Assembly: GCA_951406725.2 (NCBI GenBank)
Contig: OX597823.1
Location: forward strand, 47,678,001 to 47,742,000
Direction: 5' to 3'
DNA: 64,000 nt
From: Octopus vulgaris
Taxonomy: Eukaryota
The position numbers and the translations under genes are program-made. The notes beneath the pieces are model-generated. The model searched no databases. It had not been told where the DNA came from and saw only the letters and a list, made by a program, of their open reading frames with translations. Positions 11,975 through 35,214 of this stretch are shown here, in pieces (positions within the stretch are counted from its first letter, which is position 1; the number at the start of each line of letters is the position of its first letter).

Positions 11975-12320
11975 AGAAGGACAGACAAGTGATGCTGGCG
12001 GATGGGGCCGTCGGTATCACTCTCATATATCATTTTTCATATTCCATTTTGCTCATATATATGTAATTGTGATGTTCCATGTCCCCATGTCTTGTAATGT
12101 CCCCCTCTTCGTTGGCCCCTTGTGGGTAATAAAAAATCACGTGGTTTTTTCGGCTCTGTGTTTTTTGCTCTCTGTGAAATTCGGTAAAAAGAAAAAAGAA
12201 CAAAAAGTGAATGGTTGTTGGTGTAAAATTTTGAACATAGTTAATGCGGTTTCGCGTCTCACTGGTTCTGCGCGTTACACTTTTTCGGTTCGGGAGGCCG
12301 TTTCTCGGCCGGAGGCGACT

Positions 12321-13650: not shown

Positions 13651-13978
13651 AGAAGGACAGACAAGTGATGCTGGCGGATGGGGCCGTCGGTATCACTCTC
13701 ATATATCATTTTTCATATTCCATTTTGCTCATATATATGTAATTGTGATGTTCCATGTCCCCATGTCTTGTAATGTCCCCCTCTTCGTTGGCCCCTTGTG
13801 GGTAATAAAGAATCACGTGGTTTTTTCGGCTCCTGAAAATTCGGTAAAAAAGAACAAAAAGCGTTGTTGTTGTTGTGGAAATTCTGAACGGCGTTGACGC
13901 GGTTTCGCGTTTCGCTCGTTCAGCGCGTTACACTTTTTCTGTTTTGGCGGCCGTTTTCGGTCTGTCAGACAGAAGGAG

Positions 13979-15393: not shown

Positions 15394-15722
15394 TGCTGAC
15401 GGACGGGGCCGTTGGTATCACTTTCATTTTATCATTTTTCGTTTAACAATTCATGTTCATAAAGTTTAATTATAATGTTCTATGTCCCCATGTTTTGTAA
15501 TGTCCCCCTCTTCGTTGGCCCCTTGTGGGTAATAAAAAATCACGTTTTTTTTCGGCTCTGTGTTTTTTGCTCTCTGTGAAATTCGGTAAAAAGAAAAAAG
15601 AACAAAAAGTGAATGGTTGTTGGTGTAAAATTTTGAACATAGTTGATGAGGTTTCGCGTCTCACTGGTTCTGCGCGTTACACTTTTTCGGTTCGGGAGGC
15701 CGTTTCTCGGCCGGAGGCGACT

Positions 15723-17052: not shown

Positions 17053-17379
17053 AGAAGGACAGATAAGTGATGCTGGCGGATGGGGCCGTCGGTATCGCTC
17101 TCATATATCATTTTCATATTCCATTTTGCTCATATATATGTAATTGTGATGTTCCATGTCCCCATGTCTTGTAATGTCCCCCTCTTCGTTGGCCCCTTGT
17201 GGGTAATAAAAAATCACGTGGTTTTTTCGGCTCCTGAAAATTCGGTAAAAAAGAACAAAAAGCGTTGTTGTTGTTGTGGAAATTCTGAACGGCGTTGACG
17301 CGGTTTCGCGTTTCGCTCGTTCAGCGCGTTACACTTTTTCTGTTTTGGCGGCCGTTTTCGGTCTGTCAGACAGAAGGAG

Positions 17380-18794
17380 ATGGACTATGAGTCTCTAACA
17401 GACTTGTCCACGACAGATGAGGAACTGGAACAGGCAATTGCAGTGAAGCTGATGGAGGAAAAGGCTGGAGTTTTTGAGTCTTTATCAGACTTGCCTATGT
17501 CTGAGAAGGAGCTAGAAATGGCAGCAAGGAAATTGGAAGACAAGCTGAGTTATACCTATGCCGGTGTAACCAAGAAGGCGGAAGAGAAAGGGGTCGACAT
17601 GGCCAAGTTGCCAAGTTACCAGAAATACATGAAAAAGGAAAGCGGTGAGGTGGAACTATCACCGACACCCAGGAGAAAAGAATGGTATGATAAGAGGACC
17701 ATTGTTTACAGGGTGTGCGCAAACGAAAGGAAGAGGGTAGAAGTTGTATCCATGGAATGGATAGAGGAAGCCCTGCGAAGAACTGAGGAGGAAATAAATT
17801 TTCTGACTCGAGGATCCAAGTACGGGACCGTAGTTGTGCACTTTAAAAGTGAATCTGCAGCGAGGAAGATGGCAGCGAAGGCGGTGAAGTCGGAAAAGGT
17901 AACACTGTTACCTACGTATTTAAACAGGAGGATTACACGAATAAGGGTGGAGGGAGTGCCACCAAACGTGGAGGCAGAATGGATTGTGGCGGCTGTGATC
18001 AGCGGCCACGAGGACGAAGTGGATATTCTCCATGCCTCGGTTAAGTCCGAGGGCTGGAGAGGCGTAACAGTGGAGCTGAACGTACAGGCAGAGACCGAGG
18101 TACTGGTGGACCTGACGGAAAGCATCAGACTGGGAGAAGTGATCATGAGAGTGTGGGTGGAGGGCAGGGCTCCACGTTGTTACAAGTGTGGCCTGAGGGG
18201 TCACATAAGAGCCTTCTGCCCTCCCCCAGGGAAAGAAACGGATTCCGAACCAGAGAGAGAGAAGCAGAAACCAGAGGAGAAGGAAACAGAGGAAGAGAAT
18301 ACACAGAAATGGAAGGAAGCTGGAAGTAAGAGGAAGAGAAGAATTCATGGAAAAGAAAATAATATGGAACTCCAATCTACCCCAAAACCACCCACACCCT
18401 CTGAGTCCCACCCTATCCATGCAGACATTGAACCCACCCGCTCCCCCCAACAAGAAAACAAAAGAAAAAAAAGAATACACATACACAAGAGATTGAAATC
18501 GAACCCAGGCCGTACATTTGTACTATGACTGAACAGAAAGAAGTTAAAAGTCTAATGGAAGAGTATAAATGGTATGATGTTGGAGAGACTAGGTATGCTG
18601 TGATTGAAAAGAAGAACATAGGTGAGTTTATGGGGAGGTGTGAAAGGGAGAATTGGGAGGTGAAAGATATAAGAATGAGCGATGAATTCGTGGAAAATAT
18701 GGATGAGTATTTCGGAGTAAGAATGGATATGGAATTTATTCGTATTGACAAAGAACATTCAAGTGACTATGAACAACAAAGGACAGGTAAGTGA
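17380..18794 (+). pseudogene. Family B ORF1-like copy with -1 frameshift (unit 11)
   Basis: One C missing in the C-run at ~18443-18448. Confidence 0.75.
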
Positions 18795-19108
18795 TGCTGA
18801 CGGACGGGGCCGTTGGTATCACTTTCATTTTATCATTTTTCGTTTAACAATTCATGTTCATAAAGTTTAATTATAATGTTCTATGTCCCCATGTTTTGTA
18901 ATGTCCCCCTCTTCGTTGGCCCCTTGTGGGTAATAAAAAATCACGTGTTTTTTTGCTCTCTGTGAAATTCGGTTAAAAGAAAAAAGAACAAAAGGTGAAT
19001 GGTTGTTGTTGTAAAATTTTGAACATAGTTGATGCGGTTTCGAGTCTCACTGGTTCTGCGCGTTACACTTTTTCGGTTCGGGAGGCCGTTTTTCGGCCGG
19101 AGGCGACT

Positions 19109-20481
19109 ATGAGCCGCCTCCATCAAGCGGAGGAGATGGAAGGGAGAATTTACTCTGAAATTTCGACAGAAGTATCGACATCTGAGGAGGAGTTGGTGGT
19201 GAAAAAGATGGAAGGCACCTACGCAGGTGTAACGAAGAAGTCAACGGAAAGAGAGATAGACCTGGCGAAGTTGGCGGGCCTCCAGGAGTTTGTGAAGGAG
19301 GACGAGAACGGTGAAGTTGAGCTGCTGCATCCAGTAGGGTGCGGAGACTGGTTCCATCGTAGAACCATTAAATATAAAGTATTTATGAATGGAGGTAGAA
19401 AGATGGAAGTAATTAACATGGAAGCAATTGAAGAGGCTCTCAAGCAGACAGGAGAGGAAATTGTGTACATGACAAAAGGATTACAATACGGAACCATAAC
19501 GGTGCAATTTAAAAGTGAAAAAGCAGCCAGGAATGTAGCAGCCAAGGTGGTGAGTACAGAAAAGATTTACTTGTTACCCTCGTATCTGAATAGGCGGACA
19601 ACAAGAATTAGGGTGGAGGGAATACCTCCACACCTAGAGGGCGAATTAATAACGGCTGCGGTTATAAAAGGAAATGAAGATAAAGTGGACATCCTCCACG
19701 CCATTATGAAGTATGAAGGCGTGAGAGGTGCCACACTAGTTATGAACATTCAAACGGAGGCGGATGTTATAGAGAGGATTACGGACAGCATAAAAACTGG
19801 AAATATTATTATGAGAGTGTGGGTGGAGGGTAGGGCGCCCAGGTGCTACAAGTGTGGCCAAAGGGGTCACATAAGAGCCTACTGCCCTCCCCCACCAAAG
19901 GAAAAAGAAAAGGAAAGCGTTGAGGAAGCCTCAGGAGAGGAAGAAAATAAACAGAAACAAACAGAGAGGGAAACGACAGAAGAAGAGGAGATGCAACAAG
20001 AGTGGAAAGAAGGGGGAACAAAGAGAAAAAGAAAGAAAAAGAAAACTGTGCGAAGCCCCAACCCACCCCAACACCACCCGCACCCTCTGAATCCCACCCT
20101 TCCCCTACAGACAGTGAACCCACCCGCTCCCCTCCAACAAGAAAACAAAAGAAAAATAATAATACAGACAGACAAGAGTTTGAAAACGAACCCAGGCCGA
20201 ACATTTATATTGTGACTGAACAGAAAGAGGTTGAAAGGGTAATGGAGGAGTATGAATGGTATGAAATGGATGGGACCAGATATGCAGTGCTGGAAAAGAA
20301 GAATATAGATGAGTTTGTGTTGAGGTGTGAAAGGGAGAATTGGGAGGTGAAAGATACAAGAATGAGCGATGAATTCGTGGAATATATGGAGGACAGTTTC
20401 GGAGTAAGAATGGATATGGATGGTCTTCGTATTGGGAATGAACATTCAGGTGACAGTGAAAACAAAAGGACAGGTAAGTGA
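19109..20481 (+). pseudogene. Chimeric ORF1-like copy: A-type N-terminus, B-like C-terminal domain, one frameshift (unit 12)
   Basis: MSRLHQ... up to the basic tract, then ...SEPTRSPPTRKQKK...EPRPNIYIVTEQ...; frameshift in the A-rich run at ~20030-20045. Confidence 0.75.
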
Positions 20482-20793
20482 TGCTGGCGGAGGGGGCCGT
20501 TAGCATCGCTTTCATATATCATTTTCAAAATTCATTTTACTCATATCTATGTAATTGTGATGTTCTATGTCCCCAATGTTTGTAACGTCCCCTCTATGTA
20601 GCCCCTAGTGGGTAATAAAGAATCAGGTCGTGTTTTTTTGCTCTCTGTGAAATTCGGTAAAAAGAAAAAAGAACAAAAGGTGAATGGTTGTTGTTGTAAA
20701 ATTTTGAACATAGTTGATGCGGTTTCGAGTCTCACTGGTTCTGCGCGTTACACTTTTTCGGTTCGGGAGGCCGTTTTTCGGCCGGAGGCGACT

Positions 20794-22167
20794 ATGAGCC
20801 GCCTCCATCAAGCGGAGGAGATGGAAGGGAGAATTTACTCTGAAATTTCGACAGAAGTATCGACATCTGAGGAGGAGTTGGTGGTGAAAAAGATGGAAGG
20901 CACCTACGCAGGTGTAACGAAGAAGTCAACGGAAAGAGAGATAGACCTGGCGAAGTTGGCGGGCCTCCAGGAGTTTGTGAAGGAGGACGAGAACGGTGAA
21001 GTTGAGCTGCTGCATCCAGTAGGGTGCGGAGACTGGTTCCATCGTAGAACCATTAAATATAAAGTATTTATGAATGGAGGTAGAAAGATGGAAGTAATTA
21101 ACATGGAAGCAATTGAAGAGGCTCTCAAGCAGACAGGAGAGGAAATTGTGTACATGACAAAAGGATTACAATACGGAACCATAACGGTGCAATTTAAAAG
21201 TGAAAAAGCAGCCAGGAATGTAGCAGCCAAGGTGGTGAGTACAGAAAAGATTTACTTGTTACCCTCGTATCTGAATAGGCGGACAACCAGAATTAGGGTG
21301 GAGGGAATACCTCCACACCTAGAGGGCGAATTAATAACGGCTGCGGTTATAAAAGGAAATGAAGATAAAGTGGACATCCTCCACGCCATTATGAAGTATG
21401 AAGGCGTGAGAGGTGCCACACTAGTTATGAACATTCAAACGGAGGCGGATGTTATAGAGAGGATTACGGACAGCATAAAAACTGGAAATATTATTATGAG
21501 AGTGTGGGTGGAGGGTAGGGCGCCCAGGTGCTACAAGTGTGGCCAAAGGGGTCACATAAGAGCCTACTGCCCTCCCCCACCAAAGGAAAAAGAAAAGGAA
21601 AGCGTTGAGGAGGCCTCAGGAGAGGAAGAAAATAAACAGAAACAAACAGAGAAGGAAACGACAGAAGAAGAGGAGATGCAACAAGAGTGGAAAGAAGGGG
21701 GAACAAAGAGAAAAAGAAAAAAAAAGAAAAACTGTGCGAAGCCCCAACCCACCCCAACACCACCCGCACCCTCTGAATCCCACCCTTCCCCTACAGACAG
21801 TGAACCCACCCGCTCCCCTCCAACAAGAAAACAAAAGAAAAATACAGACAGACAAGAGTTTGAAAATGAACCCAGGCCGAACATTTATATTGTGACCGAA
21901 CAGAAAGAGGTTGAAAGGGTAATGGAGGAGTATGAATGGTATGAAATGGATGGGACCAGATATGCAGTGCTGGAAAAGAAGAATATAGATGAGTTTATGT
22001 TGAGGTGTGAAAGGGAGAATTGGGAGGTGAAAGATATAAGAATGAGCGATGAATTCGTGGAATATATGGAGGACAGTTTCGGAGTAAGAATGGATATGGA
22101 TGGTCTTCGTATTGGGAATGAACATTCAGGTGACAGTGAAAACAAAAGGTCGGGTAAGTGGTGCTAG
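20794..22167 (+). CDS. Chimeric A/B ORF1-like protein, 457 aa, intact (unit 13)
   Basis: Open frame from ATG 20794; A-type core with B-like C-terminal domain. Confidence 0.85.
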   Translation: MSRLHQAEEMEGRIYSEISTEVSTSEEELVVKKMEGTYAGVTKKSTEREIDLAKLAGLQEFVKEDENGEVELLHPVGCGDWFHRRTIKYKVFMNGGRKMEVINMEAIEEALKQTGEEIVYMTKGLQYGTITVQFKSEKAARNVAAKVVSTEKIYLLPSYLNRRTTRIRVEGIPPHLEGELITAAVIKGNEDKVDILHAIMKYEGVRGATLVMNIQTEADVIERITDSIKTGNIIMRVWVEGRAPRCYKCGQRGHIRAYCPPPPKEKEKESVEEASGEEENKQKQTEKETTEEEEMQQEWKEGGTKRKRKKKKNCAKPQPTPTPPAPSESHPSPTDSEPTRSPPTRKQKKNTDRQEFENEPRPNIYIVTEQKEVERVMEEYEWYEMDGTRYAVLEKKNIDEFMLRCERENWEVKDIRMSDEFVEYMEDSFGVRMDMDGLRIGNEHSGDSENKRSGKWC

Positions 22168-22473
22168 CGGATGGGGCCGTTGGCACCGCTTTCATATATC
22201 ATTTTCAAAATTCATTTTACTCATATCTATGTAATTGTGATGTTCTATGTCCCCAATGTTTGTAACGTCCCCTCTATGTAGCCCCTAGTGGGTAATAAAG
22301 AATCAGGTCGTGTTTTTTTGCGCTTTGTAAAATTCGGTTAAAAAAGAACAAAAAGCGTTGTTGTTGTTGTGGAAATTCTGAACGGCGTTGACGCGGTTTC
22401 GCGTTTCGCTCGTTCAGCGCGTTACACTTTTTCTGTTTTGGCGGCCGTTTTCGGTCTGTCAGACAGAAAGGAA

Positions 22474-23889
22474 ATGGACTATGAGTCTCTAACAGACTTG
22501 TCCACGACAGATGAGGAACTGGAACAGGCAATTGAAGTGAAGCTGATGGAAGAAAAGGCTGGAGTTTTCGAGTCTTTATCAGACCTGCCTACGTCTGAGA
22601 AGGAGCTAGAAATGGCAGCAAGGAATTTGGAAGAGAAGCTGGGTTATACCTATGCCGGTGTAACCAAGAAGGCGGAAGAGAAAGGGGTCGACATGGCCAA
22701 GTTGGCAAGTTACCAGAAATACATGAAAAAGGAAAGCGGTGAGGTGGAACTATCACCGACACCCAGGAGAAAAGAATGGTATGATAAGAGGACCATTATT
22801 TACAGGGTGTTCGCAAACGAAAGGAAGAGGGTAGAAGTTGTAACCATGGAATGGATAGAGGAAGCCCTGCGAAGAACTGAGGAGGAAATAAATTTTCTGA
22901 CTCGAGGATCCAAGTACGGTACCGTAGTTGTGCATTTCAAAACTGAGTCTGCAGCGAGGAAGATGGCGGCGAAGGCGGTGAAGTCAGAAAAGGTAACCCT
23001 ATTACCTACGTATTTAAACAGGAGGATTACACGAATAAGGGTGGAGGGAGTGCCACCAAACGTGGAGGCAGAATGGATTGTGGCGGCTGTGATCAGCGGC
23101 CACGAGGACGAGGTGGATATTCTCCATGCCTCGGTTAAGTCCGAGGGCTGGAGAGGCGTAACAGTGGAGCTGAACGTACAGGCAGAGACCGAGGTACTGG
23201 TGGACCTGACGGAAAGCATCAGACTGGGAGACGTGATCATGAGAGTGTGGGTGGAGGGCAGGGCTCCACGTTGTTACAAGTGTGGCCTGAGGGGTCACAT
23301 AAGAGCCTTCTGCCCTCCCCCAGGGAAAGAAATGGATTCCGAACCAGAGAGAGAGAAGCAGAAACCAGAGGAGAAGGAAACAGAGGAAGAGAATACACAG
23401 AAATGGAAGGAAGCTGGAAGTAAGAGGAAGAGAAGAATACGTGGAAAAGAAAATAATATGGAACTCCAATCTACCCCAAAACCACCCACACCCTCTGAGT
23501 CCCACCCTATCCATGCAGACATTGAACCCACCCGCTCCCCCCCAACAAGAAAACAAAAGAAAAAAAAGAATACACACACACAAGAGATTGAAATCGAACC
23601 CAGGCCGTACATTTGTACTATGACTGAACAGAGGGAAGTTAAAAGTCTAATGGAAGAGTATAAATGGTATGATGTTGGAGAGACTAGGTATGCTGTGATT
23701 GAAAAGAAGAACATAGGTGAGTTTATGGGGAGGTGTGAAAGGGAGAATTGGGAGGTGAAAGATATAAGAATGAGCGATGAATTCGTGGAAAATATGAATG
23801 AGTATTTCGGAGTAAGAATGGATATGGAATTTATTCGTATTGGCAAAGAACATTCAAGTGACTATGAAAAACAAAGGACAGGTAAGTGA
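22474..23889 (+). CDS. Family B ORF1-like protein, 471 aa, intact (unit 14)
   Basis: ATG 22474 (MDYESL), TYAGVT, RGSKYGTVVVHF, CCHC knuckle. Confidence 0.85.
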   Translation: MDYESLTDLSTTDEELEQAIEVKLMEEKAGVFESLSDLPTSEKELEMAARNLEEKLGYTYAGVTKKAEEKGVDMAKLASYQKYMKKESGEVELSPTPRRKEWYDKRTIIYRVFANERKRVEVVTMEWIEEALRRTEEEINFLTRGSKYGTVVVHFKTESAARKMAAKAVKSEKVTLLPTYLNRRITRIRVEGVPPNVEAEWIVAAVISGHEDEVDILHASVKSEGWRGVTVELNVQAETEVLVDLTESIRLGDVIMRVWVEGRAPRCYKCGLRGHIRAFCPPPGKEMDSEPEREKQKPEEKETEEENTQKWKEAGSKRKRRIRGKENNMELQSTPKPPTPSESHPIHADIEPTRSPPTRKQKKKKNTHTQEIEIEPRPYICTMTEQREVKSLMEEYKWYDVGETRYAVIEKKNIGEFMGRCERENWEVKDIRMSDEFVENMNEYFGVRMDMEFIRIGKEHSSDYEKQRTGK

Positions 23890-24200
23890 TGCTGACGGAC
23901 GGGGCCGTTGGTATCGCTTTCATTTTATCATTTTTTCGTTTAACAATTCATTTTCATAAAGTTTAATTATAATGTTCTATGTCCCCATGTTTTGTTATGT
24001 CCGCCATTCTTCGTAGCCCCTTAGTGGGTAATAAAGAAATCAGATTTGAACTCCGCGGTCGTGTTTTGAAAATTTACCCACGTGTGTTGTTATCTGTGAC
24101 TAGACAGTGAAATTTTGTTGTGTAAATTGATTATTATCGCGCGAGGCGCTTGCCTCCACGTGTGGAAACCTTCCGAAGAAGGTGAATTGACCCTCTAGTC

Positions 24201-25610
24201 ATGGCGACTTACGCGGGGGTCACGGGAAGGAAAAATAATGATTCGTCGATAATCGTGAAGGATGTTTTCTTTGAGAAGAGTAAACTCAAAGAATATGAAA
24301 AGCTATTCAAAAGGGAGGGTGATAGCGTGAAGCTAATCCCCCCCGCGAAAGCAAAAGAGGACAAAGAAAACAAGACTGTAACATATAGAACCCAAGACAA
24401 AAATACAAAGAAACTGGCAAGAGTGGAGATAGCAGAAATCGAAAAATGTCTGGGAGACATAATGGGGAAATCGACCTACGTGAGTAGAGGCAAGAAATTT
24501 GGTACGGTGGAGGTGAGATGTGCAACGGAAGAAATTGCAGCCTCACTGGCTACCACTGTACTAAGAGCGGAAACATTTATAATGTGGCCCTCATACAAGG
24601 GAAGAAGAGGGGTCCGGGTTAAAATCCCGAATATACCCCCAGAAGTAAAAACAGAATGGCTGGCAACAGCTATTCTAGGAGCAGCAGAAGAGGAAGTGGA
24701 GGTGGAATCCTTTAAGGAGTCCAACGCGATAAACTGGAGAGGATATGGGGTAGAACTGTGTTTGATGGCCACAAAAGAGGACATTGAAAGGTTCCCCTAC
24801 AGAATAGAAATTGAAGATGAGAAAACCCTCAGTGTAATTGTAGAGGGAAGAAAGCCAAACTGCTACTTGTGCGGGACAAGGGGGCACATTAAAAAAGAGT
24901 GCCCGTTATACGAATTCGTAGCGGAGTGCGAGCAGGAACTCGAAGAAAAGAAGAATACGGTAAATGAAAAAGAAAACATAGAAAAGGAAACAAAACAACA
25001 AGAGAAAGGAAATAATAAGTCAATGAAGGAAAAAGAAATAAAAGAAAAGAAAGAAATAGAACCAAAACAGAGTCAGGAAAAAAAAAAAAAGGAAAAAGAA
25101 ACAACAGGAAAAAAACAAGAGAGAGATCAGAATCAAACGAAAAGAAAAGACGACACACAAAAAGAAAAAGAAAAGGAACATAAAACACGAGAGAAAGAGA
25201 GAACAGACAAAGAACCAAAAAAACAAGAGAAGGAAGGAGAAAGAAAAGAAGGCAAAAAGAGAGAAAGAGAGAAACAAAGAGAGGAGAACAAGGAAGAAAT
25301 AAGCCCGAAAAGAAAAATGAAGGAAAACGTAGGACGGAAACAAGATTACTGCTTCTACAAGTTAGTAACCTTCCATTTCTGCCCTGAAATGAAGGATTTG
25401 ACAAGTAATACGGAGGGACATGTGTGGGTCAACAGGATGACCGATCAGTGGCAGGAGACTGCTCTTATCCCCGAAGAAAGAGTCGCTGAGTTCCTCAGAG
25501 CTGCCGGTGAGAGTGTAACATTTTACACGAGTGTTCGAGTGAGAGAGCGGCTGCCTGAGGGCTCAGTGATAGACTTTAGAGAATTGAAAACTATCATGGA
25601 ATATGTATAG
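24201..25610 (+). CDS. Family D ORF1-like protein, 469 aa, intact (unit 15)
   Basis: MATYAGVT, RGKKFGTVEVRC, knuckle CYLCGTRGHIKKEC, long K/E-rich tract, distinct C-terminal domain. Confidence 0.85.
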   Translation: MATYAGVTGRKNNDSSIIVKDVFFEKSKLKEYEKLFKREGDSVKLIPPAKAKEDKENKTVTYRTQDKNTKKLARVEIAEIEKCLGDIMGKSTYVSRGKKFGTVEVRCATEEIAASLATTVLRAETFIMWPSYKGRRGVRVKIPNIPPEVKTEWLATAILGAAEEEVEVESFKESNAINWRGYGVELCLMATKEDIERFPYRIEIEDEKTLSVIVEGRKPNCYLCGTRGHIKKECPLYEFVAECEQELEEKKNTVNEKENIEKETKQQEKGNNKSMKEKEIKEKKEIEPKQSQEKKKKEKETTGKKQERDQNQTKRKDDTQKEKEKEHKTREKERTDKEPKKQEKEGERKEGKKREREKQREENKEEISPKRKMKENVGRKQDYCFYKLVTFHFCPEMKDLTSNTEGHVWVNRMTDQWQETALIPEERVAEFLRAAGESVTFYTSVRVRERLPEGSVIDFRELKTIMEYV

Positions 25611-25999
25611 AACTGTGAGAAGAGAGAGAAGAAAGAAGAAAAAAAAAAAAATATTGTGAAATATATGTGACGAAAATGTAACCTCTCGATTCCGGGGATC
25701 GAGTGGGCATTTACATCTCATTGTAAATATTCTTTCATATGTCATTTTTTACTTTTATTTTTTCCTTTTCTTGTCATTCGCTTTCTTATTTTAAGTTCCC
25801 CGATTGTACTGTTCCATCTATGTTCGCCCCTTGTGGGTAATAATAAAATCTCCGCGGTCGTGTTTTGAAAATTTACCCACGTGTGTTGTTATCTGTGACT
25901 AGACAGTGAAATTTTGTTGTGTAAATTGATTATTATCGCGCGAGGCGTTTGCCTCCACGTGTGGAAACCTTCCGAAGAAGGTGAATTGACCCTCTAGTC

Positions 26000-27407
26000 A
26001 TGGCGACTTACGCGGGGGTCACGGGAAGGAAAAATAATGATTCGTCGATAATCGTGAAGGATGTTTTCTTTGAGAAGAGTAAACTCAAAGAATATGAAAA
26101 GCTATTCAAAAGGGAGGGTGATAGCGTGAAGCTAATCCCCCCCGCGAAAGCAAAAGAGGACAAAGAAAACAAGACTGTAACATATAGAACCCAAGACAAA
26201 AATACGAAGAAACTGGCAAGAGTGGAGATAGCCGAAAATGAAAAATGTCTGGGAGACATAATGGGGAAAACAACCTACGTGAGTAGAGGCAAGAAATTTG
26301 GTACGGTGGAGGTGAGATGTGCAACGGAAGAAATTGCAGCCTCACTGGCTACCACTGTACTAAGAGCCGAAAAATTTACAATGTGGCCCTCATACAAGGG
26401 AAGAAGAGGGGTCCGGGTTAAAATCCCGAATATACCCCCAGAAGTGAAAAACAGAATGGCTGGCAACAGCTATTCTAGGAGCAGCAGAAGAGGAAGTGGA
26501 GGTGGAATCCTTTAAGGAGTCCAACGCGGTAAACTGGAGAGGATATGGGGTAGAACTGTGTTTGATGGCCACAAAAGAGGACATTGAAAGGTTCCCCTAC
26601 AGAATAGAAATTGAAGATGAGAAAACCCTCAGTGTAATTGTAGAGGGAAGAAAGCCAAACTGCTACTTGTGCGGGACAAGGGGGCACATTAAAAAAGAGT
26701 GCCCGTTATACGAATTCGTAGCGGAGTTCGAGCAGGAACACGAAGAAAAGAAGAATACGGTAAATGAAAAAGAAAACATAGAAAAGGAAACAAAACAACA
26801 AGAGAAAGGAAATAATAAGTCAATGAAGGAAAAAGAAATAAAAGAAAAGAAAGAAATAGAACCAAAACAGAGTCAGGAAAAAAAAAAGGAAAAAGAAACA
26901 ACAGGAAAAAAACAAGAGAGAGATCAGAATCAAACGAAAAGAAAAGACGGCACACAAAAAGAAAAAGAAAAGGAACATAAAACACGAGAGAAAGAGAGAA
27001 CAGACAAAGAACCAAAAAGACAAGAGAAGGAAGGAGAAAGAAAAGAAGGCAAAAAGAGAGAAAGAGAGAAACAAAGAGAGGAGAACAAGGAAGAAATAAG
27101 CCCGAAAAGAAAAATGAAGGAAAACGTAGGACGGAAACAAGATTACTGCTTCTACAAGTTAGTAACCTTCCATTTCTGCCCTGAAATGAAAGACTTGACA
27201 TGTAATACGGAGGGACATATATGGGTCAACAGGATGACCGATCAGTGGCAAGAGCCTGCTCTAATCCCCGAAGAAAGAGTCGCTGAGTTCCTCAGAGCTG
27301 CCGGAGAGAGTGTAATATTTTACACGAGTGTTCGAGTGAGAGAGCGGCTGCCTGAGGGCTCAGTGATGGACTTTAGAGAATTGAAAGCTATTATGGAATA
27401 TGTATAG
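26000..27407 (+). pseudogene. Family D ORF1-like copy with frameshift (unit 16)
   Basis: Extra A at ~26447-26451 splits the ORF into two track entries. Confidence 0.75.
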
Positions 27408-27786
27408 AATTGTGAGAAGAGAGAGAAGAAAGAAGAGAAAAAAATGAAAATTTTGTGAAATATATGTGACGAAAATGTAACCTCTCGATTCCGGGGATCG
27501 AGTGGGCATTTACATCTCATTGTAAATATTCTTTCATATGTCATTTTTTACTTTTATTTTTTCCTTTTCTTGTCATTCGCTTTCTTATTTTAAGTTCCCC
27601 GATTGTATTGTCCCCTCTATGTTCGCCCCTTGTGGGTAGTAATAAAATCACGTGTCGGAAATCTATGCGTGTTGTTATCTGTGACTAGACGGTTGAAATT
27701 TTGTTGTGTAAATTGATTAATATCGCGCGAGGCGTTTGCCTCCACGTGTGGAAACCTTCCGAAGAAGGTGAATTGACCCTCTAGTC

Positions 27787-29189
27787 ATGGCGACTTACGC
27801 GGGGGTCACCGGGAAAAATAATGATTCGTCGATAATCATAAGGATGTTTTCTTTGAGAAGGATAAACTCAAAGAATATGAAAAGCTATTCAAAAGGGAGG
27901 GTGATAGCGTGAAGCTAATCCCCCCCGCGAAAGCAAAAGAGGACAAAGAAAGCAAGACAGTGACATACAGAACCCAAGACAAAAATACAAAGAAACTGGC
28001 AAGAGTGGAGATAGTCGAAATTGAAAAATGTCTGGGAGACATAATGGGGAAAACGAACCTACGTGAGTAGAGGCAAGAAATTTGGTACGGTGGAGGTGAG
28101 ATGTGCAACGGAAGAAATTGCAGCCTCACTGGCTACCACTGTACTAAGAGCCGAAAAATTTACAATGTGGCCCTCATACAAGGGAAGAAGAGGGGTCCGG
28201 GTTAAAATCCCGAATATACCCCCAGAAGTGAAAACAGAATGGCTGGCAACAGCTATTCTAGGAGCAGCAGAAGAGGAAGTGGAGGTGGAATCCTTTAAGG
28301 AGTCCAACGCGGTAAACTGGAGAGGATATGGGGTAGAACTGTGTTTGATGGCCACAAAAGAGGACATTGAAAGGTTCCCCTACAGAATAGAAATTGAAGA
28401 TGAGAAAACCCTCAGTGTAATTGTAGAGGGAAGAAAACCAAACTGTTACTTGTGTGGGACAAGGGGGCACATTAAAAAAGAGTGCCCGTTATACGAATTC
28501 GTAGCGGAGTGCGAGCAGGAACACGAAGAAAAGAAGAATACGGTAAATGAAAAAGAAAACATAGAAAAGGAAACAAAACAACAAGAGAAAGGAAATAATA
28601 AGTCAATGAAGGAAAAAGAAATAAAAGAAAAGAAAGAAATAGAACCAAAACAGAGTCAGGAAAAAAAAAAGGAAAAAGAAACAACAGGAAAAAAACAAGA
28701 GAGAGATCAGAATCAAACGAAAAGAAAAGACGGCACACAAAAGAAAAAGAAAAGGAACATAAAACACGAGAGAAAGAGAGAACAGACAAAGAACCAAAAA
28801 GACAAGAGAAGGAAGGAGAAAGAAAAGAAGGCAAAAAGAGAGAAAGAGAGAAACAAAGAGAGGAGAACAAGGAAGAAATAAGCCCGAAAAGAAAAATGAA
28901 GGAAAACGTAGGACGGAAACAAGATTACTGCTTCTACAAGTTAGTAACCTTCCATTTCTGCCCTGAAATGAAAGACTTGACATGTAATACGGAGGGACAT
29001 ATATGGGTCAACAGGATGACCGATCAGTGGCAAGAGCCTGCTCTAATCCCCGAAGAAAGAGTCGCTGAGTTCCTCAGAGCTGCTGGAGAGAGTGTAATAT
29101 TTTACACGAGTGTTCGAGTGAGAGAGCGGCTGCCTGAGGGCTCAGTGATGGACTTTAGAGAATTGAAAGCTATTATGGAATATGTATAG
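27787..29189 (+). pseudogene. Family D ORF1-like copy with several frameshifts (unit 17)
   Basis: Homologous to unit 15; indels near 27810, 28055 and 28740. Confidence 0.75.
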
Positions 29190-29663
29190 AATTGTGAGAA
29201 GAGAGAGAAGAAAGAAGAGAAAAAAAAAAAAAGAAAATTTTGTGAAATATATGTGACGAAAATGTAACCTCTCGATTCCGGGGATCGAGTGGGCATTTAC
29301 ATCTCATTGTAAATATTCTTTCATATGTCATTTTTTACTTTTATTTTTTCCTTTTCTTGTCATTCGCTTTCTTATTTTAAGTTCCCCGATTGTATTGTCC
29401 CATCTATGTTCGCCCCTTGTGGGTAGTAATAAAATCACGTGTCGGAAATCAATTTTTTGCGTTATTAGTAAGTTGATATATTTTTGCTCTCGTACTATTA
29501 TCTCTGTTATTATATACTGTTGGTCTACCTGTTTTGTCTATTGTTGTCTAACTGACGAAGTCAGCCTTCGCGTGAAGACTTCGCGTTGGTGTTCCCCCCT
29601 CCGTGGGGGAAAACTACAATTAATTTGGAATTACCAAAGGCTTGTTAAAGCCATTTGTTCAAG

Positions 29664-31041
29664 ATGGAGTCCCCCATCTCTTATTCGCCCGTGACGAGCG
29701 AGGATGAATACCCGGCGTTGTCGCCAAGAAAAAAAGAGGCGTTGTCGCCAAGAAAAAAAGAGGCGTTGTCGCCGAAGAAAAAAGAGGCGGCGTCGCCCAA
29801 GAAAATGGAAAAAACCAGTACCAGCATCAACTCCAGCAAAAAAATTCGCTGAAGTGGCTGGGAAAAAGATCAAAAAAATAAATATAGAAAATTTTGGAAA
29901 ATTTGCAGACTGTGTAAAAAAAGAAGGCACAGAAGTGACTGTGGCCACAAACATACAAAAACATGACGAGATAGAAAAAAAAGAATAATATATAAAACTT
30001 ACGACACAACGACAAAAATGATCCAAAAAATCGAAGAAAAAAAAATAGAGTTTTGTCTAAAACCTTTTATGGATAAAATAACGTATATAAACAGAGGAAA
30101 AAGATGCGGCACAGTGGAGGTGCGTTTTACTACGGAGGAGATAGCGAAGAAACTATCGATGGAGCCGATCAAAGCGGAAAACATTGTCTTACTACCATTG
30201 TATAAAGGAAAAAGGACGTCGAAAATTTCAATGAACAACATACCGCCAGAGGCAGATGCTGAATGTCTGGTGGCAGCAGTGATGGTAGGTCTGGAGGAAA
30301 AAATAAACATCCTCCAGGCCACAGTGGAGGAAGAGGAGTTTTGGAAAGGGCAAAAATAGTGATAGCCATTCAGGCGGAGGTGCAAACACTGGAAGAAATT
30401 CCAGAAACGGTAAAGATTAGTGAAGACGAGAAAATAACAGTGTTCGTGGAGGGCAGGAAGCCGAGGTGCTTCGGCTGCGGCAAGAAGGGTCATGTAAGGG
30501 CGGAATGCCAACCCCAACCCAAACCGCAGGAAGCACCTAAGCCAAAAGAAAAAGAAGATAATGTGTCACCAGAAGCAGCGTCGGACGGCCCAGAAGGGAA
30601 GACTGAAGGTGTGGAGGTGACGGTGACAGCAGAACCAGCGGCGGAGGAAAAAAAGAGCGAGGAAAAGATAAATGAGGAGGGGTGGGCAAAAATTACCGGA
30701 AAAAAAAAAGAAAAACGGAAACCACCCCTCCCAGAGTAATTTTAAAAAAGAAAAAAGAGTCAATGAACTCGTATATGGCCGTAAAGGCAGCAAATAGCAG
30801 ACTCGGAAACGTGTTGGCAGCCATGGCCAAAGTGGAGAAAGTAGTGAAAAAAAACGACTTTGTAATTTACAGAATAGACCGGAAGGATTACGGGCGGATA
30901 AAGTCAGAATTCTTCCATGACGTAGGCCCACTTAGATTGGATGTGACATCTCCACATATATTCGAGGGCCTACGTCAGACTCCCCCACGAGGCCCAGAAA
31001 AAGAGTTAGAAGAACAAGAGAAAACCGAACCACTGATATAA
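29664..31041 (+). pseudogene. LINE ORF1 (CCHC knuckle CFGCGKKGHVRAEC), broken by several frameshifts in A-runs
   Basis: Consecutive track fragments (29655-29852, 29704-29988, 30018-30359, 30263-30739, 30682-31041) join into a homolog of the upstream units (YINRGKRCGTVEVRF, VFVEGRKPRC). Confidence 0.8.
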
Positions 31042-31049
31042 GGTAAGTA

Positions 31050-34000
31050 ATGGATTACATTTATGTTGGTTGTTTGAATGTGCGCGGCCTGGGAGCAGGC
31101 TGGAAGCAAGGTCGCTTCCTGCATGATATCAGGTCGCGTAATTTAGATGTTATTGTTGCTACAGAAACCCGGTTAGAGGGGCCAAGAGGTCTACTCCCGC
31201 TGTTTGACGGCTACGAGAGTTTTTTCTCTCCTGGCAGTCCTACAGGCGGGAGTGGGGTGTTGGTCCTATTAAAAAGAAACCGGGTTTCTGAGAAAAAGTT
31301 AATTTTTGCAGATCCAGAAGGTAGGCTGGTCGTCATGGATTTGACGTTCAGTAATGGTAAAGTTATCAGACTGGTTGCAATTTACGCACCCAACCATACA
31401 GGGCAAAGTGATTATTTTCGTGAACTAGAAAACTTTCTTGGTACTTCGCATTCATTAGTGGTGCTAGGAGACTTTAACACAATTTGCAAAGCGGATGTAG
31501 ATTGTGTTGGCTCGCGTCCAGATAGAAAAGGCAACAGTGGCTTCATGGAACTGCTAAGCCGCTTTGAGCTAGCAGATCCTTATAGGCTGGAATTTCCGAA
31601 CGCTCCATTGTGGACATGGTCAAACAGCGACGGATCTTCCAGGTCATATTTAGATAGAATACTAATTAGAAAAGTAGACAGTAAAATAGCTAAGTGTCCA
31701 CAGTTTTACCCGATCAGCTACAGTGATCATAAAATGGTCACTTGTAAGCTTGACATAGATAAGGTTAAAAATAGAGGATCCGGTTACTGGAAACTTAATA
31801 CGTCCCTTTTGGCGATTAAGGAGTACAAAGACCGGATTAGGAATATAATTCAGAGGGCACTATCTGGTACCATCATTAATAACAAATGGTGGTACGCCCT
31901 CAAACGAGCCATCAAGTTTGAGTCTATTAGATATAGCATAGGAGTAGTGGCTAGAGAGGCTAGAAGGGAAACTACTCTAGTTAAGGAATTAGAGGAAGCC
32001 ATGAAAACTGGCTCTGCGGCTCAGGTGGCGTCCAAGAGACTGGTGTTAAACCAGCACCTCGAGGCCAAACACATGGGCTGCATTGTCAGGGCTAGAATCC
32101 GCCATATGGGATGTGAAGGAATCAACGCCGTGAGATGGGCCCGAGTGGTGGAAGCTCAGCATGGTAACGATGCCACGATTCGATCTTTGACGAACCAACA
32201 AGGTGAGTTGATAAACGAACCCGAGGAGATGTGTGAGGCCTTTCAGGAGCACTTCGCTCAGCTTTTCGGTGAGTGCGGCGGACTGGATAGGAGGAGGGCC
32301 TTTACGGACCTACTCGACGGTCTGCCGCGCTTATCGGGGCGAGATGCGGAGGGCTGTGAAGGGCCAATCACGCCTGAGGAGGTGGTTGAGGCAATGGCGG
32401 ACTGCGGCGCGGGCAAGGCGCCGGGTTTGGATGGTCTACCCTATGAGTTATATAAGAGTATGCCAGACTTGTTCGGGCACCTACTGGCGGAGGTCTATGC
32501 GAACTGGCAGCAGAACGGGCTTATACCCAGATCTGTGCGCCGGGGAGTAGTGACTCTCGTCAGAAAGGACCCGAGCAAGGGGGAGTGCATTGATAATTTC
32601 AGGCCCATCACTCTGCTAAACACAGAGTTGAAGATTTTGGCCAAAGTGTTATCGAAAAGATTGGCGCGTGTCGCGGATGGTCTGATCGGAGAGGCACAGA
32701 CATGTGCCGTTCCGGGCAGATCCATTCAGGATAATCTCCATCTAATGCGGTACACTATAGAGGGGTTTAATAGTGATTCTGGCAAGGGTGGGGCACTGGT
32801 CCATTTAGACCAATCTAAAGCTTTTGATAGGGTCGACCATCGTTACCTGGTATCTGCCCTGGCACAGTTCGGGCTGAGCCTTGGCTTCCTCAGGTGGATT
32901 ATCCAAATTTATGATAACATCGACTCGGTAGTTCGGGTGAACGGCTTCTTGTCGAAGCCGTTCAAAATCAAACGCTCGGTTCGTCAAGGGTGTCCGCTCT
33001 CCCCGCTTTTGTACGTGATGGCTCTTGAGCCATTACTGCGAAAACTGAGCGGCATCCCGAGACAGCCAGGTAATGGAAAATCAGTGTCAGCGTACGCGGA
33101 TGACATCACCATCATCGTAACCGAAATGGACCACCTATGTAAAGTAGGCAAGGCCATAGAGGTTTACGAGACGGTGACAGGAGCAAAAGTTAATCGCGAA
33201 AAGTCAGTCGGCTTGCAACTCGGCACCTGGAGAGGCAAGTCGATGCCTCCTGACAGCGTCGTGGGACGTTGGACGGAGGGTCCGATTAAACTGCTAGGGG
33301 TCTGGTTCGGTCCAGACCTCCAAATAGAGAAGAATTGGGGCGAGGTAACGAGCAAGGTGGCTGCAGTAGCCAAGACCTGGTCTTGGCGGTGGCTATCCCT
33401 GAAAGGGAGGGCGGAGGTGGCCAATGTGTTTATCGCATCGGTTATCACCTACCGCCTTTCCGTCGTTCCTTGCCCTGATTCGTGGTTGATCAAGTTGGAA
33501 AGACAGCTCTTCTACTTCTTGTGGAAGGGCGGGAAACCACTTGTGAAACGCTCTACTTGCTGTCAACAACCGTTAAAGGGTGGGCTAGGGATGCCTTGGC
33601 TGATGATGCGCAGACATGCGCTGAGGTTAAGACATCTGTGGCTCTACCTGGATGGTGAACGGGTGTGGTCTTCGCTAGCAAAACTGATGTTTCCCAAGTT
33701 CACTAGTTTCGGTGGATGGGAAACCTGGCTGAATCGTAGATCGAAACTTGGTACTTGGTACACGGAGTGTCGCAAGGCTCTCCTGCTATTCCGTCGCTCG
33801 GGCAACGCCTGCGGTGGGGGTTCCACCACATTCTTCTATAGAGGGTTGGTAGAGGCGGAATGTGAAGATACCTTGGGGGAAACCCTAGGTCTCGACGATA
33901 ATCAGCTGGCCAGTCTGTTCCGACGTACGTTCGAGCCGAGGACACTGGACAACTTCCAGAAGTCTCTGGCATGGCAATGCTACAGAGGAGCTCTACCTGT

Positions 34001-34445
34001 TCGGGATAAACTCGCAAGGCACGGTGGCCAAGACAGTCCGATATGTCCAAGATGCGGGCGGGATAGGGAAACCGTCCCGCACGCTATTGTTCATTGTCCG
34101 GACGTGTCTGAGGTGTGGGTTTATGCCGAACAGCTGTTGTCAGGTACACGAAGAGTACAGCTGTCGACTGAGTCGATTACAAAAATTGACCCACCGGATT
34201 TCCTCGTGAATGAAGGTAAGTTTCGTTTTCTCGTTGTAGTAGCAATTGCGAAAGAGGTGATATGGAAGACGAGAATGAAAGGTTTACAGTCAGGCAAGTT
34301 CATCTCCGGCCCTGGTTTGATGAAGTATTTCATCTTTCACCTGAAAAGGAAGATAGGGCTGGAGAGAATATGCCTGACTAGGAGAGTGTATGAAGAACGA
34401 TGGAAGGATGTAGCACGAAAGTTGCGAGTGAAAGATACAACATAA
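31050..34445 (+). CDS. LINE ORF2 polyprotein: AP-like endonuclease + reverse transcriptase + C-terminal zinc finger (L1/Tx1 group), 1131 aa, intact
   Basis: APE motifs LNVRG, ATET, IYAP, GDFN, YLDR, SDH, WKLN. RT motifs KAPGLDG, FRPITLLN, DQSKAFDRVDH, RQGCPLSPLLY, YADD. C-terminal CPRC-x8-H-x4-C. Confidence 0.96.
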   Translation: MDYIYVGCLNVRGLGAGWKQGRFLHDIRSRNLDVIVATETRLEGPRGLLPLFDGYESFFSPGSPTGGSGVLVLLKRNRVSEKKLIFADPEGRLVVMDLTFSNGKVIRLVAIYAPNHTGQSDYFRELENFLGTSHSLVVLGDFNTICKADVDCVGSRPDRKGNSGFMELLSRFELADPYRLEFPNAPLWTWSNSDGSSRSYLDRILIRKVDSKIAKCPQFYPISYSDHKMVTCKLDIDKVKNRGSGYWKLNTSLLAIKEYKDRIRNIIQRALSGTIINNKWWYALKRAIKFESIRYSIGVVAREARRETTLVKELEEAMKTGSAAQVASKRLVLNQHLEAKHMGCIVRARIRHMGCEGINAVRWARVVEAQHGNDATIRSLTNQQGELINEPEEMCEAFQEHFAQLFGECGGLDRRRAFTDLLDGLPRLSGRDAEGCEGPITPEEVVEAMADCGAGKAPGLDGLPYELYKSMPDLFGHLLAEVYANWQQNGLIPRSVRRGVVTLVRKDPSKGECIDNFRPITLLNTELKILAKVLSKRLARVADGLIGEAQTCAVPGRSIQDNLHLMRYTIEGFNSDSGKGGALVHLDQSKAFDRVDHRYLVSALAQFGLSLGFLRWIIQIYDNIDSVVRVNGFLSKPFKIKRSVRQGCPLSPLLYVMALEPLLRKLSGIPRQPGNGKSVSAYADDITIIVTEMDHLCKVGKAIEVYETVTGAKVNREKSVGLQLGTWRGKSMPPDSVVGRWTEGPIKLLGVWFGPDLQIEKNWGEVTSKVAAVAKTWSWRWLSLKGRAEVANVFIASVITYRLSVVPCPDSWLIKLERQLFYFLWKGGKPLVKRSTCCQQPLKGGLGMPWLMMRRHALRLRHLWLYLDGERVWSSLAKLMFPKFTSFGGWETWLNRRSKLGTWYTECRKALLLFRRSGNACGGGSTTFFYRGLVEAECEDTLGETLGLDDNQLASLFRRTFEPRTLDNFQKSLAWQCYRGALPVRDKLARHGGQDSPICPRCGRDRETVPHAIVHCPDVSEVWVYAEQLLSGTRRVQLSTESITKIDPPDFLVNEGKFRFLVVVAIAKEVIWKTRMKGLQSGKFISGPGLMKYFIFHLKRKIGLERICLTRRVYEERWKDVARKLRVKDTT

Positions 34446-34689
34446 ATGTAATACCAAGCGCAACCAAAAGTATCAGTGGGGAGGCGGGGCTCGTGGGGTC
34501 TGAGCTAAACCCGCACCCACTCCACCCGTAATGTCTTCCGGTCTGTCCCATCATTCGATTTCTGTCCATTTATTGTAATTCATGAAAATTTTTAAATCCG
34601 ATTTATTGTAAAAACCCATTCGTTTGTCTGACCCCATCATCAGATTGTATTGTCCCATCTATGTTCGCCCCTTGTGGGTAATAATAAAA

Positions 34690-35000
34690 CAATATGGAGG
34701 AAAGCACCTTCGAAAAGTGTCTTGGTGCGACTATGAAAGATATCTAATTAGAGGCAGTAAATTCGCCACAATAGAAGTAAGGTTTGGGTCAACGGAGCGT
34801 GCAAGGGAGTACTCGGCTCGAACTTGCAAAGTGGAAATATTTTATTTTCACCTTTATATCTGGGACGTAGGACGTCCCGGAAAAAAATGTAAAATTCCCC
34901 CCCCCCCCCCCCGGGAAGTAGAGGCAGGCTGGATTGTAGCCACACTTCTATACAAGAGGGAGGACAAGATACAATTGATCGAAATTACAAGAGACGGGCT
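34690..35000 (+). pseudogene. Degenerate internal fragment of a related ORF1
   Basis: YLIRGSKFATIEVRFGS and PREVEAGWIVATLL match B-type FLTRGSKYGTVVVHF and PPNVEAEWIVAAV. Confidence 0.7.

Positions 35001-35164: not shown

Positions 35165-35211
<47 letters not shown>

Positions 35212-35214
<3 letters not shown>

What the first reader, a model, noticed from the sequence alone, without database searches (positions are those of the whole stretch)
27601..29450. Junctions between different families repeat the first 16-20 nt of the downstream element, as expected for target-site duplication at a self target
Seen: unit 17 (D) and the LINE both begin TCACGTGTCGGAAATC (27648, 29435) and then diverge. 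Unit 13 (A-type 5' UTR) and unit 14 (B) both begin TCAGGTCGTGTTTTTTT(T)GC (20623, 22303). Unit 8 (A) and unit 9 (B) both begin TCACGTGGTTTTTTCGGCTC (12137, 13813). There are no long poly(A) tails and no 5'-truncated units. Inference: the endonuclease nicks at the AATAAA(A)/TCA boundary with a second nick ~16-20 nt downstream, so each insertion regenerates its target. The rule fails or is only partial at some junctions (14/15, 16/17).
Basis: partly seen in the sequence, partly recalled or inferred. Interest (0 to 1): 0.7.

Follow-up and report, generated by a model that had tools for sequence, protein, structure and literature searches.

The report
Octopus jumping genes stacking on themselves
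In an octopus-like genome, several families of half-size jumping genes and one complete partner lie head to tail, and short repeats at some of their joints suggest that new copies land at the joint between older copies and so re-create their own landing site, a variant of a mechanism known from insect and crocodile elements.

Summary
Window 416-34689 is a same-strand array of 17 ORF1-only retroelements (families A-D, 1.7-1.8 kb) and one APE-RT LINE; family D is 93-97% identical to Octopus vulgaris proteins. Neighbours U8/U9, U13/U14 and U17/LINE share their first 20, 19 and 16 nt exactly. Of 31 between-family leader pairs only these 3 reach 16 nt, and all are adjacent (permutation p=0.016). 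D and the LINE also share their last 47 nt and little else, so the join at +16 is non-homologous, as an insertion would give. Target-site duplication at the elements' own tail|head joint is the best reading (about 0.55) but is not shown. It fits only 3 of 7 between-family joints exactly. In all three, the upstream unit's tail predicts the leader equally well. The LINE's own leader is not repeated behind it, and much of the array was amplified by DNA recombination. A read-through RNA that carries the next unit's leader is the main rival. Closest known: tandem R1 separated by 14-bp duplications, tandem SINEU-3, HAL1, HeT-A. Verdict: new variant of a known kind, interest 0.5.

The parts
27648..27663 (+). 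16-nt leader at the start of unit 17 (family D), identical to the LINE's first 16 nt
   Evidence: the 16-mer occurs only here and at 29435
29435..29450 (+). 16-nt leader at the start of the LINE; behind it D and LINE 5' UTRs are unrelated
27648..29434 (+). Unit 17, ORF1-only element of family D (ORF1 frameshifted), the presumed inserted unit
29388..29434 (+). 47-nt 3' tail of unit 17, 46 of 47 identical to the LINE's 3' tail; holds a small invariant hairpin and the AATAAA signal
   Evidence: (blastn)
29435..34689 (+). Full-length LINE (5,255 nt): 5' UTR, frameshifted ORF1 (33-42% aa identity to unit ORF1s), ORF2, 3' UTR
31050..34445 (+). ORF2, 1131 aa, open: APE endonuclease, reverse transcriptase (YADD), C-terminal CCHC
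34643..34689 (+). LINE 3' tail shared with family D; not followed by the LINE's leader
34690..34980 (+). Decayed, 5'-truncated ORF1 piece of the same protein family (32-33% aa identity to B and D) abutting the LINE's 3' end
   Evidence: tblastn E 3e-5 and 4e-4
20623..20641 (+). 19-nt leader of unit 13 (family C = A-type 5' part with another 3' part), identical to the start of unit 14
22303..22321 (+). 19-nt leader of unit 14 (family B)
12137..12156 (+). 20-nt leader of unit 8 (family A), identical to the start of unit 9; joined out of register to the A 5' UTR
13813..13832 (+). 20-nt leader of unit 9 (family B)
416..13812 (+). Units 1-8, family A, 1,674-1,676 nt each; unit 1 = unit 5 exactly, higher-order period 6,697 nt
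13813..18940 (+). Units 9-11 (B, A, B); A+B dimer duplicated, B units carry an A-type last ~45 nt
18941..24039 (+). Units 12, 13 (family C) and 14 (family B)
24040..27647 (+). Units 15, 16 (family D) with other, longer leaders; unit 16 is a mosaic (5' like 15, 3' like 17)

Best explanation
The array grew in two steps. (1) Retrotransposition at the elements' own joints. ORF1-only elements that end in the same conserved tail as the LINE (…GTGGGTA[A/G]TAA(T)AAA) are copied in trans by a LINE ORF2 of this kind. The endonuclease nicks the bottom strand at or just inside the A-rich end of a resident unit and reverse transcription starts there. The top strand is cut a variable distance, up to about 16-20 nt, inside the next unit's 5' end. 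The new copy therefore lands between two units and starts with a copy of its downstream neighbour's first bases, and a new tail|TC joint is made. Because the leader is then transcribed as part of the element, captured leaders are inherited, stacked or replaced, which is why leaders differ far more than bodies. (2) Unequal exchange and conversion then multiplied single units and blocks, so the 18 joints hold only about three independent informative events. Shown: anatomy, shared tail, neighbour-restricted leader sharing, a non-homologous join at +16, purifying selection on ORF1, later recombination. Inferred: trans-mobilisation, nick positions, direction of copying, sequence preference of the endonuclease.
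For: Leader sharing between families only among neighbours, 3 of 31 class pairs, p=0.016. D and LINE share 16 nt at the 5' end and 46 of 47 nt at the 3' end, with only short weak hits between. The A leader is a B-type 20-mer joined out of register to the shorter A/C start (units 12, 13), a net gain of about 13 nt, as a duplication plus a full-length insert gives. Units 15/16 carry extra stacked prefixes. The tail motif occurs 19 times in the window, all at unit ends on the + strand, and 18 of 18 head-to-tail joints read AA|TC. ORF2 keeps its endonuclease and RT motifs. ORF1 models as two RRMs plus a CCHC knuckle and is under purifying selection: A vs B core dN 0.28, dS 1.72; within B, C, D dN/dS 0.22-0.42 in 5 of 5 comparisons. 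Near-identical D proteins in O. vulgaris have six near-consecutive accession numbers on one 225.7-Mb sequence and one more on a 128.6-Mb sequence, which I read as another tandem array plus a copy elsewhere. Within-family divergence rises from left to right (A 0-26, C 26, B 21-69, D 51-90 differences, then the relic), as expected if new copies are added upstream. Precedent: extra R1 copies insert into the 14-bp TSD at the 5' end of resident R1s (PMC2718515); tandem SINEU-3 sandwich a TSD (PMC4494074).
Against: Exact at only 3 of 7 between-family joints; fails at 11/12, 14/15, at three within-family joints and at LINE/relic. In each positive case the upstream neighbour is of the same family, so the repeat has no left edge, and tail type predicts the following leader at least as well (A tail 10 of 10, C tail 2 of 2, D16/17 tail 2 of 2). 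The one LINE insertion visible has no duplication and sits on an ORF1 relic, not on a TC start. A-runs are nearly constant in length, unlike fresh poly(A) tails. No empty site, second locus, read or RNA end was seen. The LINE's own ORF1 is frameshifted, so this copy need not be the active donor.
Confidence: 0.55

Rival explanations
1. The leader belongs to the 3' end of the upstream unit's RNA. AATAAA lies at the very end of each unit, so the transcript is cut 16-20 nt further on, inside the next unit's U/GU-rich 5' UTR (the usual 10-30 nt spacing is recalled textbook knowledge). This extension pairs with the target and primes reverse transcription past the poly(A), so a copy brings its donor's downstream leader along. 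The RNA is terminally redundant. Still self-targeting, but guided by RNA-DNA pairing rather than by a second nick; it can act together with the best explanation.
For: Tail type predicts the next leader: A tails 10 of 10, C tails 2 of 2, D16/17 tails 2 of 2. No poly(A) and near-constant A-runs. R1 transcripts often carry downstream target sequence that may anneal to the target and is inserted along at non-28S sites (PMC2718515).
Against: The two B units with the same last 158 nt are followed by different leaders (units 10 and 12). The LINE is followed by no leader at all. The same pattern follows from one duplication plus later amplification. No RNA end was seen.
Confidence: 0.22
2. DNA-level rearrangement only: units were shuffled by recombination, conversion and microhomology-mediated duplication in the one block that all families share (last ~45 nt plus TCA…), and the 16-20 nt are conversion tracts or duplication endpoints that ran past the joint.
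For: Recombination is plain: unit 1 = unit 5, an exact 2,912-nt repeat at period 6,697; unit 16 is a 15/17 mosaic and C an A/B-like mosaic; B units 9 and 11 have taken an A-type tail. A, B and C 5' UTRs are homologous, so their breakpoints lie in related sequence.
Against: Crossover inside shared sequence cannot put one 16-mer before two unrelated 5' UTRs (D, LINE). Three events ending at +16, +19, +20 would be coincidence. The A join is out of register. ORF1 is under purifying selection.
Confidence: 0.13
3. Template jumping: at the 5' end of one RNA the RT jumps to another element RNA, which makes head-to-tail multimers in one event and adds pieces of another family's head as 5' extensions.
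For: Explains full-length units without spacer. SINEU-2, moved by Tx1 elements, repeatedly gained head sequence of other subfamilies at its 5' end, with template jump named as a possible cause (PMC4494074 section 17).
Against: Does not explain why the added piece is the head of the adjacent downstream unit rather than of any family.
Confidence: 0.07
4. Assembly artefact: collapsed or mis-joined repeats created the shared leaders.
For: Unit 1 = unit 5 exactly; 7 of 17 ORF1s carry small frameshifting indels, some perhaps read errors. The joints were not checked against reads.
Against: The leader/body combinations are unique and sit between units that differ by 1-5% from their siblings. A similar D cluster is annotated in O. 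vulgaris. 20 of 24 listed runs, from 10 studies (one may be the source), hold over half of the D+LINE words (presence only).
Confidence: 0.03

Closest known systems
Tandem R1 arrays in Drosophila rDNA; 'double insertion' TE tandems (PMC2718515; PMC5932611)
   Same: APE-type LINE, head-to-tail copies separated by a 14-33 nt duplication, new copies inserted at the 5' end of a resident copy, later expansion by unequal exchange; RNA may carry target sequence.
   Different: R1 reuses one fixed host sequence (28S rDNA) at every joint. Here no RNA gene is detected, the repeated piece is the head of a neighbouring element and changes along the array, and 17 of 18 members lack ORF2.
Tx1-Mar LINEs and SINEU of crocodilians; Xenopus Tx1L (PMC4494074, PMC1919474)
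   Same: L1/Tx1-type ORF2, non-autonomous partners, tandem copies sandwiching a 16-letter target, recurrent 5' head additions, targets that are other mobile elements.
   Different: Their target is a separate DNA transposon and their partners are non-coding SINEs; here the partners encode ORF1 under selection and the apparent target is the elements' own tail|head joint.
HAL1 (half-L1) (PMC5753468)
   Same: Non-autonomous, ORF1-only relatives of an L1-type LINE.
   Different: The passages seen describe HAL1 in mammals and say nothing of arrays; here four families form one array and share a 47-nt sequence tail with the LINE, with no poly(A).
Drosophila HeT-A/TART/TAHRE telomere arrays (PMC5537684)
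   Same: Gag/ORF1-only elements mixed with RT-encoding partners, head to tail, one orientation, 3' ends towards ordinary chromosome DNA.
   Different: HeT-A adds to chromosome ends, has long 3' UTRs and oligo(A); no telomeric position is shown here, 3' UTRs are under 200 nt, and the repeat at the joint copies the downstream head.
Zepp LINE clusters in Coccomyxa (PMC3446292)
   Same: LINEs that accumulate in clusters of their own kind.
   Different: Zepp copies are nested; here whole units are joined end to end at a precise boundary.

Membership tests
APE-type LINE of the L1/Tx1 group (the LINE at 29435-34689) | ORF2 with N-terminal APE endonuclease, RT and C-terminal CCHC | tested here: met
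   Pfam Exo_endo_phos, RVT_1, zf-RVT; the best PDB hits of the N-terminal 250 aa are L1 endonuclease chains, E 3e-10; motifs present
APE-type LINE of the L1/Tx1 group (the LINE at 29435-34689) | ORF1 with RRM(s) and CCHC knuckle | tested here: met
   Model of the unit ORF1 core, pLDDT 79.8, matches tandem RRM proteins, Foldseek E 6e-6, VIA Z 8.4 with rmsd 2.3 over 69 residues; zf-CCHC. The LINE's own ORF1 is homologous but frameshifted
Tx1 clade proper | RT groups with named Tx1-clade elements rather than L1 proper | tested here: inconclusive
   Quick tree of 25 ORF2s puts it with an Argonauta hians protein and two unnamed rows; no curated Tx1 or L1 reference was among the rows. The label Tx1 is recalled from the anatomy
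Tx1 clade proper | Sequence-specific insertion with a TSD on both sides | tested here: inconclusive
   Leader repeats at 3 of 7 between-family joints; the LINE itself has no matching repeat at its 3' side; only one locus seen
HAL1-like ORF1-only retroelements (units A-D) | Encode ORF1 only | tested here: met
   17 units of 1,674-1,809 nt with one ORF1 each, 10 of 17 open
HAL1-like ORF1-only retroelements (units A-D) | Derived from and moved by a partner LINE | tested here: inconclusive
   ORF1 33-42% aa identical to the LINE's ORF1; last 47 nt shared D/LINE, 82-85% A,C/LINE; mobilisation itself not testable
HAL1-like ORF1-only retroelements (units A-D) | 3' poly(A) tail | tested here: not met
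   Terminal A-run at most 6 in 17 of 17 units
HAL1-like ORF1-only retroelements (units A-D) | Dispersed copies flanked by TSDs | not testable with these tools
   No genome held; one O. vulgaris D protein lies on another chromosome-size sequence, DNA not seen
R1-type tandem by double insertion | Full-length copies head to tail, later expanded by unequal exchange | tested here: met
R1-type tandem by double insertion | The same duplicated target at every joint | tested here: not met
   Six leader classes among 18 starts
R1-type tandem by double insertion | Target is a conserved multicopy host gene | tested here: not met
   0 Rfam hits at gathering score, 0 tRNAs, no telomeric repeat dimers in the window; the left end of the array lies outside the window
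HeT-A-type telomeric elements | Located at a chromosome end | tested here: inconclusive
   Array runs off the left edge; no TTAGGG dimer; orientation would be compatible
HeT-A-type telomeric elements | Promoter in the 3' end of the upstream copy | not testable with these tools
   No RNA start data

The most novel reading that the evidence does not exclude
A guild of ORF1-only elements and their partner LINE in octopuses use as landing site a joint that no host sequence provides and only they build: the conserved tail of one unit fused to the head of the next. The next unit's head also supplies the downstream part of the RNA 3'-end signal, so transcripts are terminally redundant, like the R region of an LTR, and pair with the target. 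The array is then a self-renewing, polarised structure (possibly a chromosome landmark such as a telomere-side or centromeric block) in which full-length copies are favoured and leaders are swapped between families at every round.
Probability: 0.2. Interest if true: 0.8.

Novelty: new variant of a known kind. Interest (0 to 1): 0.5.

Why it matters
Target-specific LINEs normally borrow a host repeat (rDNA, snRNA, tRNA, microsatellite, another transposon) as a safe harbour. If these elements target their own tail|head joint, the harbour is self-made, which would explain how mixed arrays of ORF1-only elements arise away from Drosophila telomeres and how LINE families exchange 5' ends. The system is directly testable: ORF2 is open, the joint is under 70 nt, and near-identical elements are annotated in O. 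vulgaris. The mechanism itself (target re-created by duplication, then unequal exchange) is known from R1 and SINEU-3, which caps the surprise.

Tried and rejected
No whole genome is held, so joints could not be collected genome-wide. A junction pattern found 0 loci in metagenome contigs; ORF2 found no confirmed locus in metagenome or prokaryote genome contigs (0 of 46 and 0 of 13 candidate stretches). Sequencing runs: no RNA holder listed; no reads were laid, so other joints, empty sites and RNA ends stay open. A host RNA gene as target: 0 Rfam and 0 tRNA hits. A covarying stem-loop in the tail: only a 4-pair invariant hairpin, 0 of 4 pairs with compensatory change in 6 sequences, which says nothing either way. 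ORF1 search with the B core alone: 0 of 1,592 candidates; the three-family profile found 1 of 8,000. The protein atlas gave no answer. The mean length of recent L1-Tx1 copies in O. vulgaris (421 insertions, 2.29 Mb) looked like support for 'no 5' truncation', but the table counts only copies of at least 90% length, so I dropped it. Tx1 versus L1 placement: unfinished tree without named references. Earlier scan findings: none for this genome or sequence. Ten literature searches listed no paper on ORF1-only head-to-tail arrays or self-joint targeting in cephalopods; the library lacks most subscription journals and I could not see Repbase entries or the O. vulgaris repeat library (one supplement searched; the store of further supplements gave no answer), which may already hold these families.

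Full report
What is there. The window begins inside a same-strand array that ends at 34689. A conserved tail motif occurs 19 times, always at a unit end on the + strand and never in the remaining 29 kb. Cutting at these ends gives 17 complete units of 1,674-1,809 nt and one of 5,255 nt. The short units each encode one protein of 440-470 aa with a CCHC knuckle. A model of its core (pLDDT 79.8 from a three-sequence alignment) matches tandem RRM proteins, the usual build of a LINE ORF1. They fall into families A (units 1-8, 10), B (9, 11, 14), C (12, 13; A-like 5' part, different 3' part) and D (15-17). The long unit is a LINE with a frameshifted ORF1 homologous to the others and an open 1131-aa ORF2 with APE endonuclease, RT and zinc knuckle. 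A decayed, 5'-truncated ORF1 piece abuts its 3' end. Named relatives are octopod: ORF2 pieces of Argonauta hians at 51-59%, and O. vulgaris proteins at 93-97% to D ORF1 for 5 of 6 sequences (85% for the sixth, whose N-terminus differs). I infer an Octopus host; no genome is held.

The observation. The shared prefixes are exactly 20, 19 and 16 nt at the coordinates given. Beyond the common TCACGTG start, nine more matching bases have a chance near 7e-6. Among 9 family/leader classes, 3 of 31 between-family pairs share 16 nt or more, the next best share 8, and the three are neighbours (p=0.016 over all orders; classes and threshold chosen after seeing the data). A-runs are at most 6 long. Against the rule: it is exact at 3 of 7 between-family joints, near-exact at the two joints of unit 10 (the same A/B event duplicated), and fails at 11/12, 14/15, 12/13, 15/16, 16/17 and LINE/relic.

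Why an insertion-type event is needed. D and the LINE share 16 nt at the start, 46 of the last 47 nt, and only short weak matches in between. A crossover inside shared sequence cannot place the same 16-mer in front of two unrelated 5' UTRs; one of the two joins at +16 is non-homologous. The A leader is the B9/B11 20-mer joined out of register to the shorter start seen in units 12 and 13, a gain of about 13 nt. Units 15 and 16 carry longer stacked prefixes that differ by 10 nt. B14 differs from B9 at 11 of the first 36 alignment columns but at only about 3% of the body. Leaders thus have their own history, as expected if each insertion picks up the head of whatever lies downstream and later passes it on. 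ORF1 is under purifying selection between families (A vs B core dN 0.28, dS 1.72) and within B, C and D (dN/dS 0.22-0.42, 5 of 5 comparisons). The units are therefore selected retroelements, not inert satellite. In O. vulgaris, six near-consecutive gene models on one chromosome-size sequence and one on another encode D; I read this as a second tandem array plus a dispersed copy, without having seen the DNA.

Why the TSD reading is not proven. In all three cases the unit read as inserted has a same-family unit upstream. The repeat that flanks it therefore has a sharp right edge (+16, +19, +20) but no left edge: 32 nt exact and 210 with two mismatches for unit 17, 116 exact for unit 13, 607 with two mismatches for unit 8. 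Tail type predicts the following leader as well as the downstream neighbour does: A tails 10 of 10, C tails 2 of 2, D16/17 tails 2 of 2; the exception is the pair of B tails of units 9 and 11, identical over 158 nt but followed by different leaders. The LINE's leader does not recur behind it. Recombination has clearly reshaped the array: unit 1 equals unit 5, a 2,912-nt exact repeat has period 6,697, unit 16 is 5' like 15 and 3' like 17, and B9/B11 carry an A-type last ~45 nt. Only about three independent events bear on the rule.

Mechanism. Most likely (0.55): ORF2 nicks the bottom strand at the A-rich end of a resident unit, copies an RNA recognised by the shared tail, and the top strand is cut up to 16-20 nt inside the next unit, so the newcomer starts with its neighbour's head and a fresh tail|TC joint results; unequal exchange then amplifies units and blocks. 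All 18 head-to-tail joints read AA|TC, and divergence within families rises from left to right, which fits growth on the upstream side. What is regenerated is the joint, not a fixed target sequence. Main rival (0.22): the RNA reads through AATAAA into the next unit's leader and this extension pairs with the target, which would also explain the missing poly(A); the 10-30 nt spacing of cleavage behind AATAAA is recalled, not from a call. DNA-only rearrangement (0.13), template jumping (0.07) and assembly error (0.03) are less likely. Nick positions, trans-mobilisation and enzyme preference are inferred.

Comparison with what is known. PMC2718515 (passages): tandem R1 copies are separated by the 14-bp TSD and form by insertion into the TSD at the 5' end of a resident copy; R1 RNA often carries downstream target sequence. 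PMC5932611 (passages): double insertion at a re-created target, then unequal exchange, is a general route to TE tandems. PMC4494074 (abstract, passages, sections 16 and 17): Tx1-moved SINEU-3 occur in tandem around a 16-letter TSD, and SINEU-2 gains 5' head pieces. PMC5753468 (passages): HAL1 encodes ORF1 only. PMC5537684 (passages): HeT-A arrays. PMC3446292 (passages): nested Zepp clusters. PMC3747384 and PMC1919474 (passages): shared LINE/partner tails; endonuclease specificity. PMC13282606 (passages, section 7, one supplement): 13 recently active L1-Tx1 families in O. vulgaris, with no mention of ORF1-only or non-autonomous arrays in the terms searched. The array works like an R1 or SINEU-3 tandem but fails two defining tests of that kind (same target at every joint; host gene as target). 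Membership of the Tx1 clade proper stays open. Ten searches listed no description of such an array in cephalopods; Repbase and the O. vulgaris repeat library were not visible. Two earlier scan notes from other genomes describe related LINE tandems; they are unchecked leads and were not used as support.

Verdict. Observation confirmed, interpretation partly supported, new variant of a known kind, interest 0.5. The boldest reading not excluded is a self-built, self-renewing landing site with terminally redundant RNAs (probability 0.2, interest 0.8).

Noticed in passing
window 600-1928 vs 3948-5276 (ORF1 of units 1 and 3): The two A subtypes differ by 15 non-synonymous and 0 synonymous changes, mostly in the C-terminal third (p about 0.026 if neutral); many are A/G differences. 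Positive selection or A-to-I editing of the RNA before copying are possible.
   Followed up: partly
window 34690-34980: Decayed ORF1 relic of a fifth family directly behind the LINE, cut at both ends; suggests that the locus is an older array that was re-invaded.
   Followed up: partly
window 29449-29461: Inside the LINE start a second TCA followed by a T-run and GCG resembles the starts of units 12 and 14, so the LINE's leader may itself be a captured 14-nt prefix.
   Followed up: partly
window 1-13812: Higher-order repeat of four A units (period 6,697 nt; 2,912 nt exact from the window start): very recent duplication or assembly duplication.
   Followed up: partly
window 246-1928, 6943-8625, 10292-11974: In the A block an open frame runs from the end of one ORF1 through the 3' UTR and the joint into the next ORF1 (548-560 aa); probably incidental, but read-through RNAs could be translated.
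   Followed up: no
protein cluster of P0028: Five members of a 45%-identical ORF2 relative are each listed with a longest contig of 26,301 nt, which suggests tandem full LINEs of this lineage in another organism.
   Followed up: no
window 29714-29805: A 24-nt tandem repeat (3.8 copies) at the start of the LINE's ORF1 encodes repeated SP-basic motifs.
   Followed up: no
window 35200-35310 and 36520-36620: Two copies of a ~110-nt sequence flank a ~1.3-kb stretch that looks like a Tc1/mariner-type remnant (seen; label recalled, not tested).
   Followed up: no
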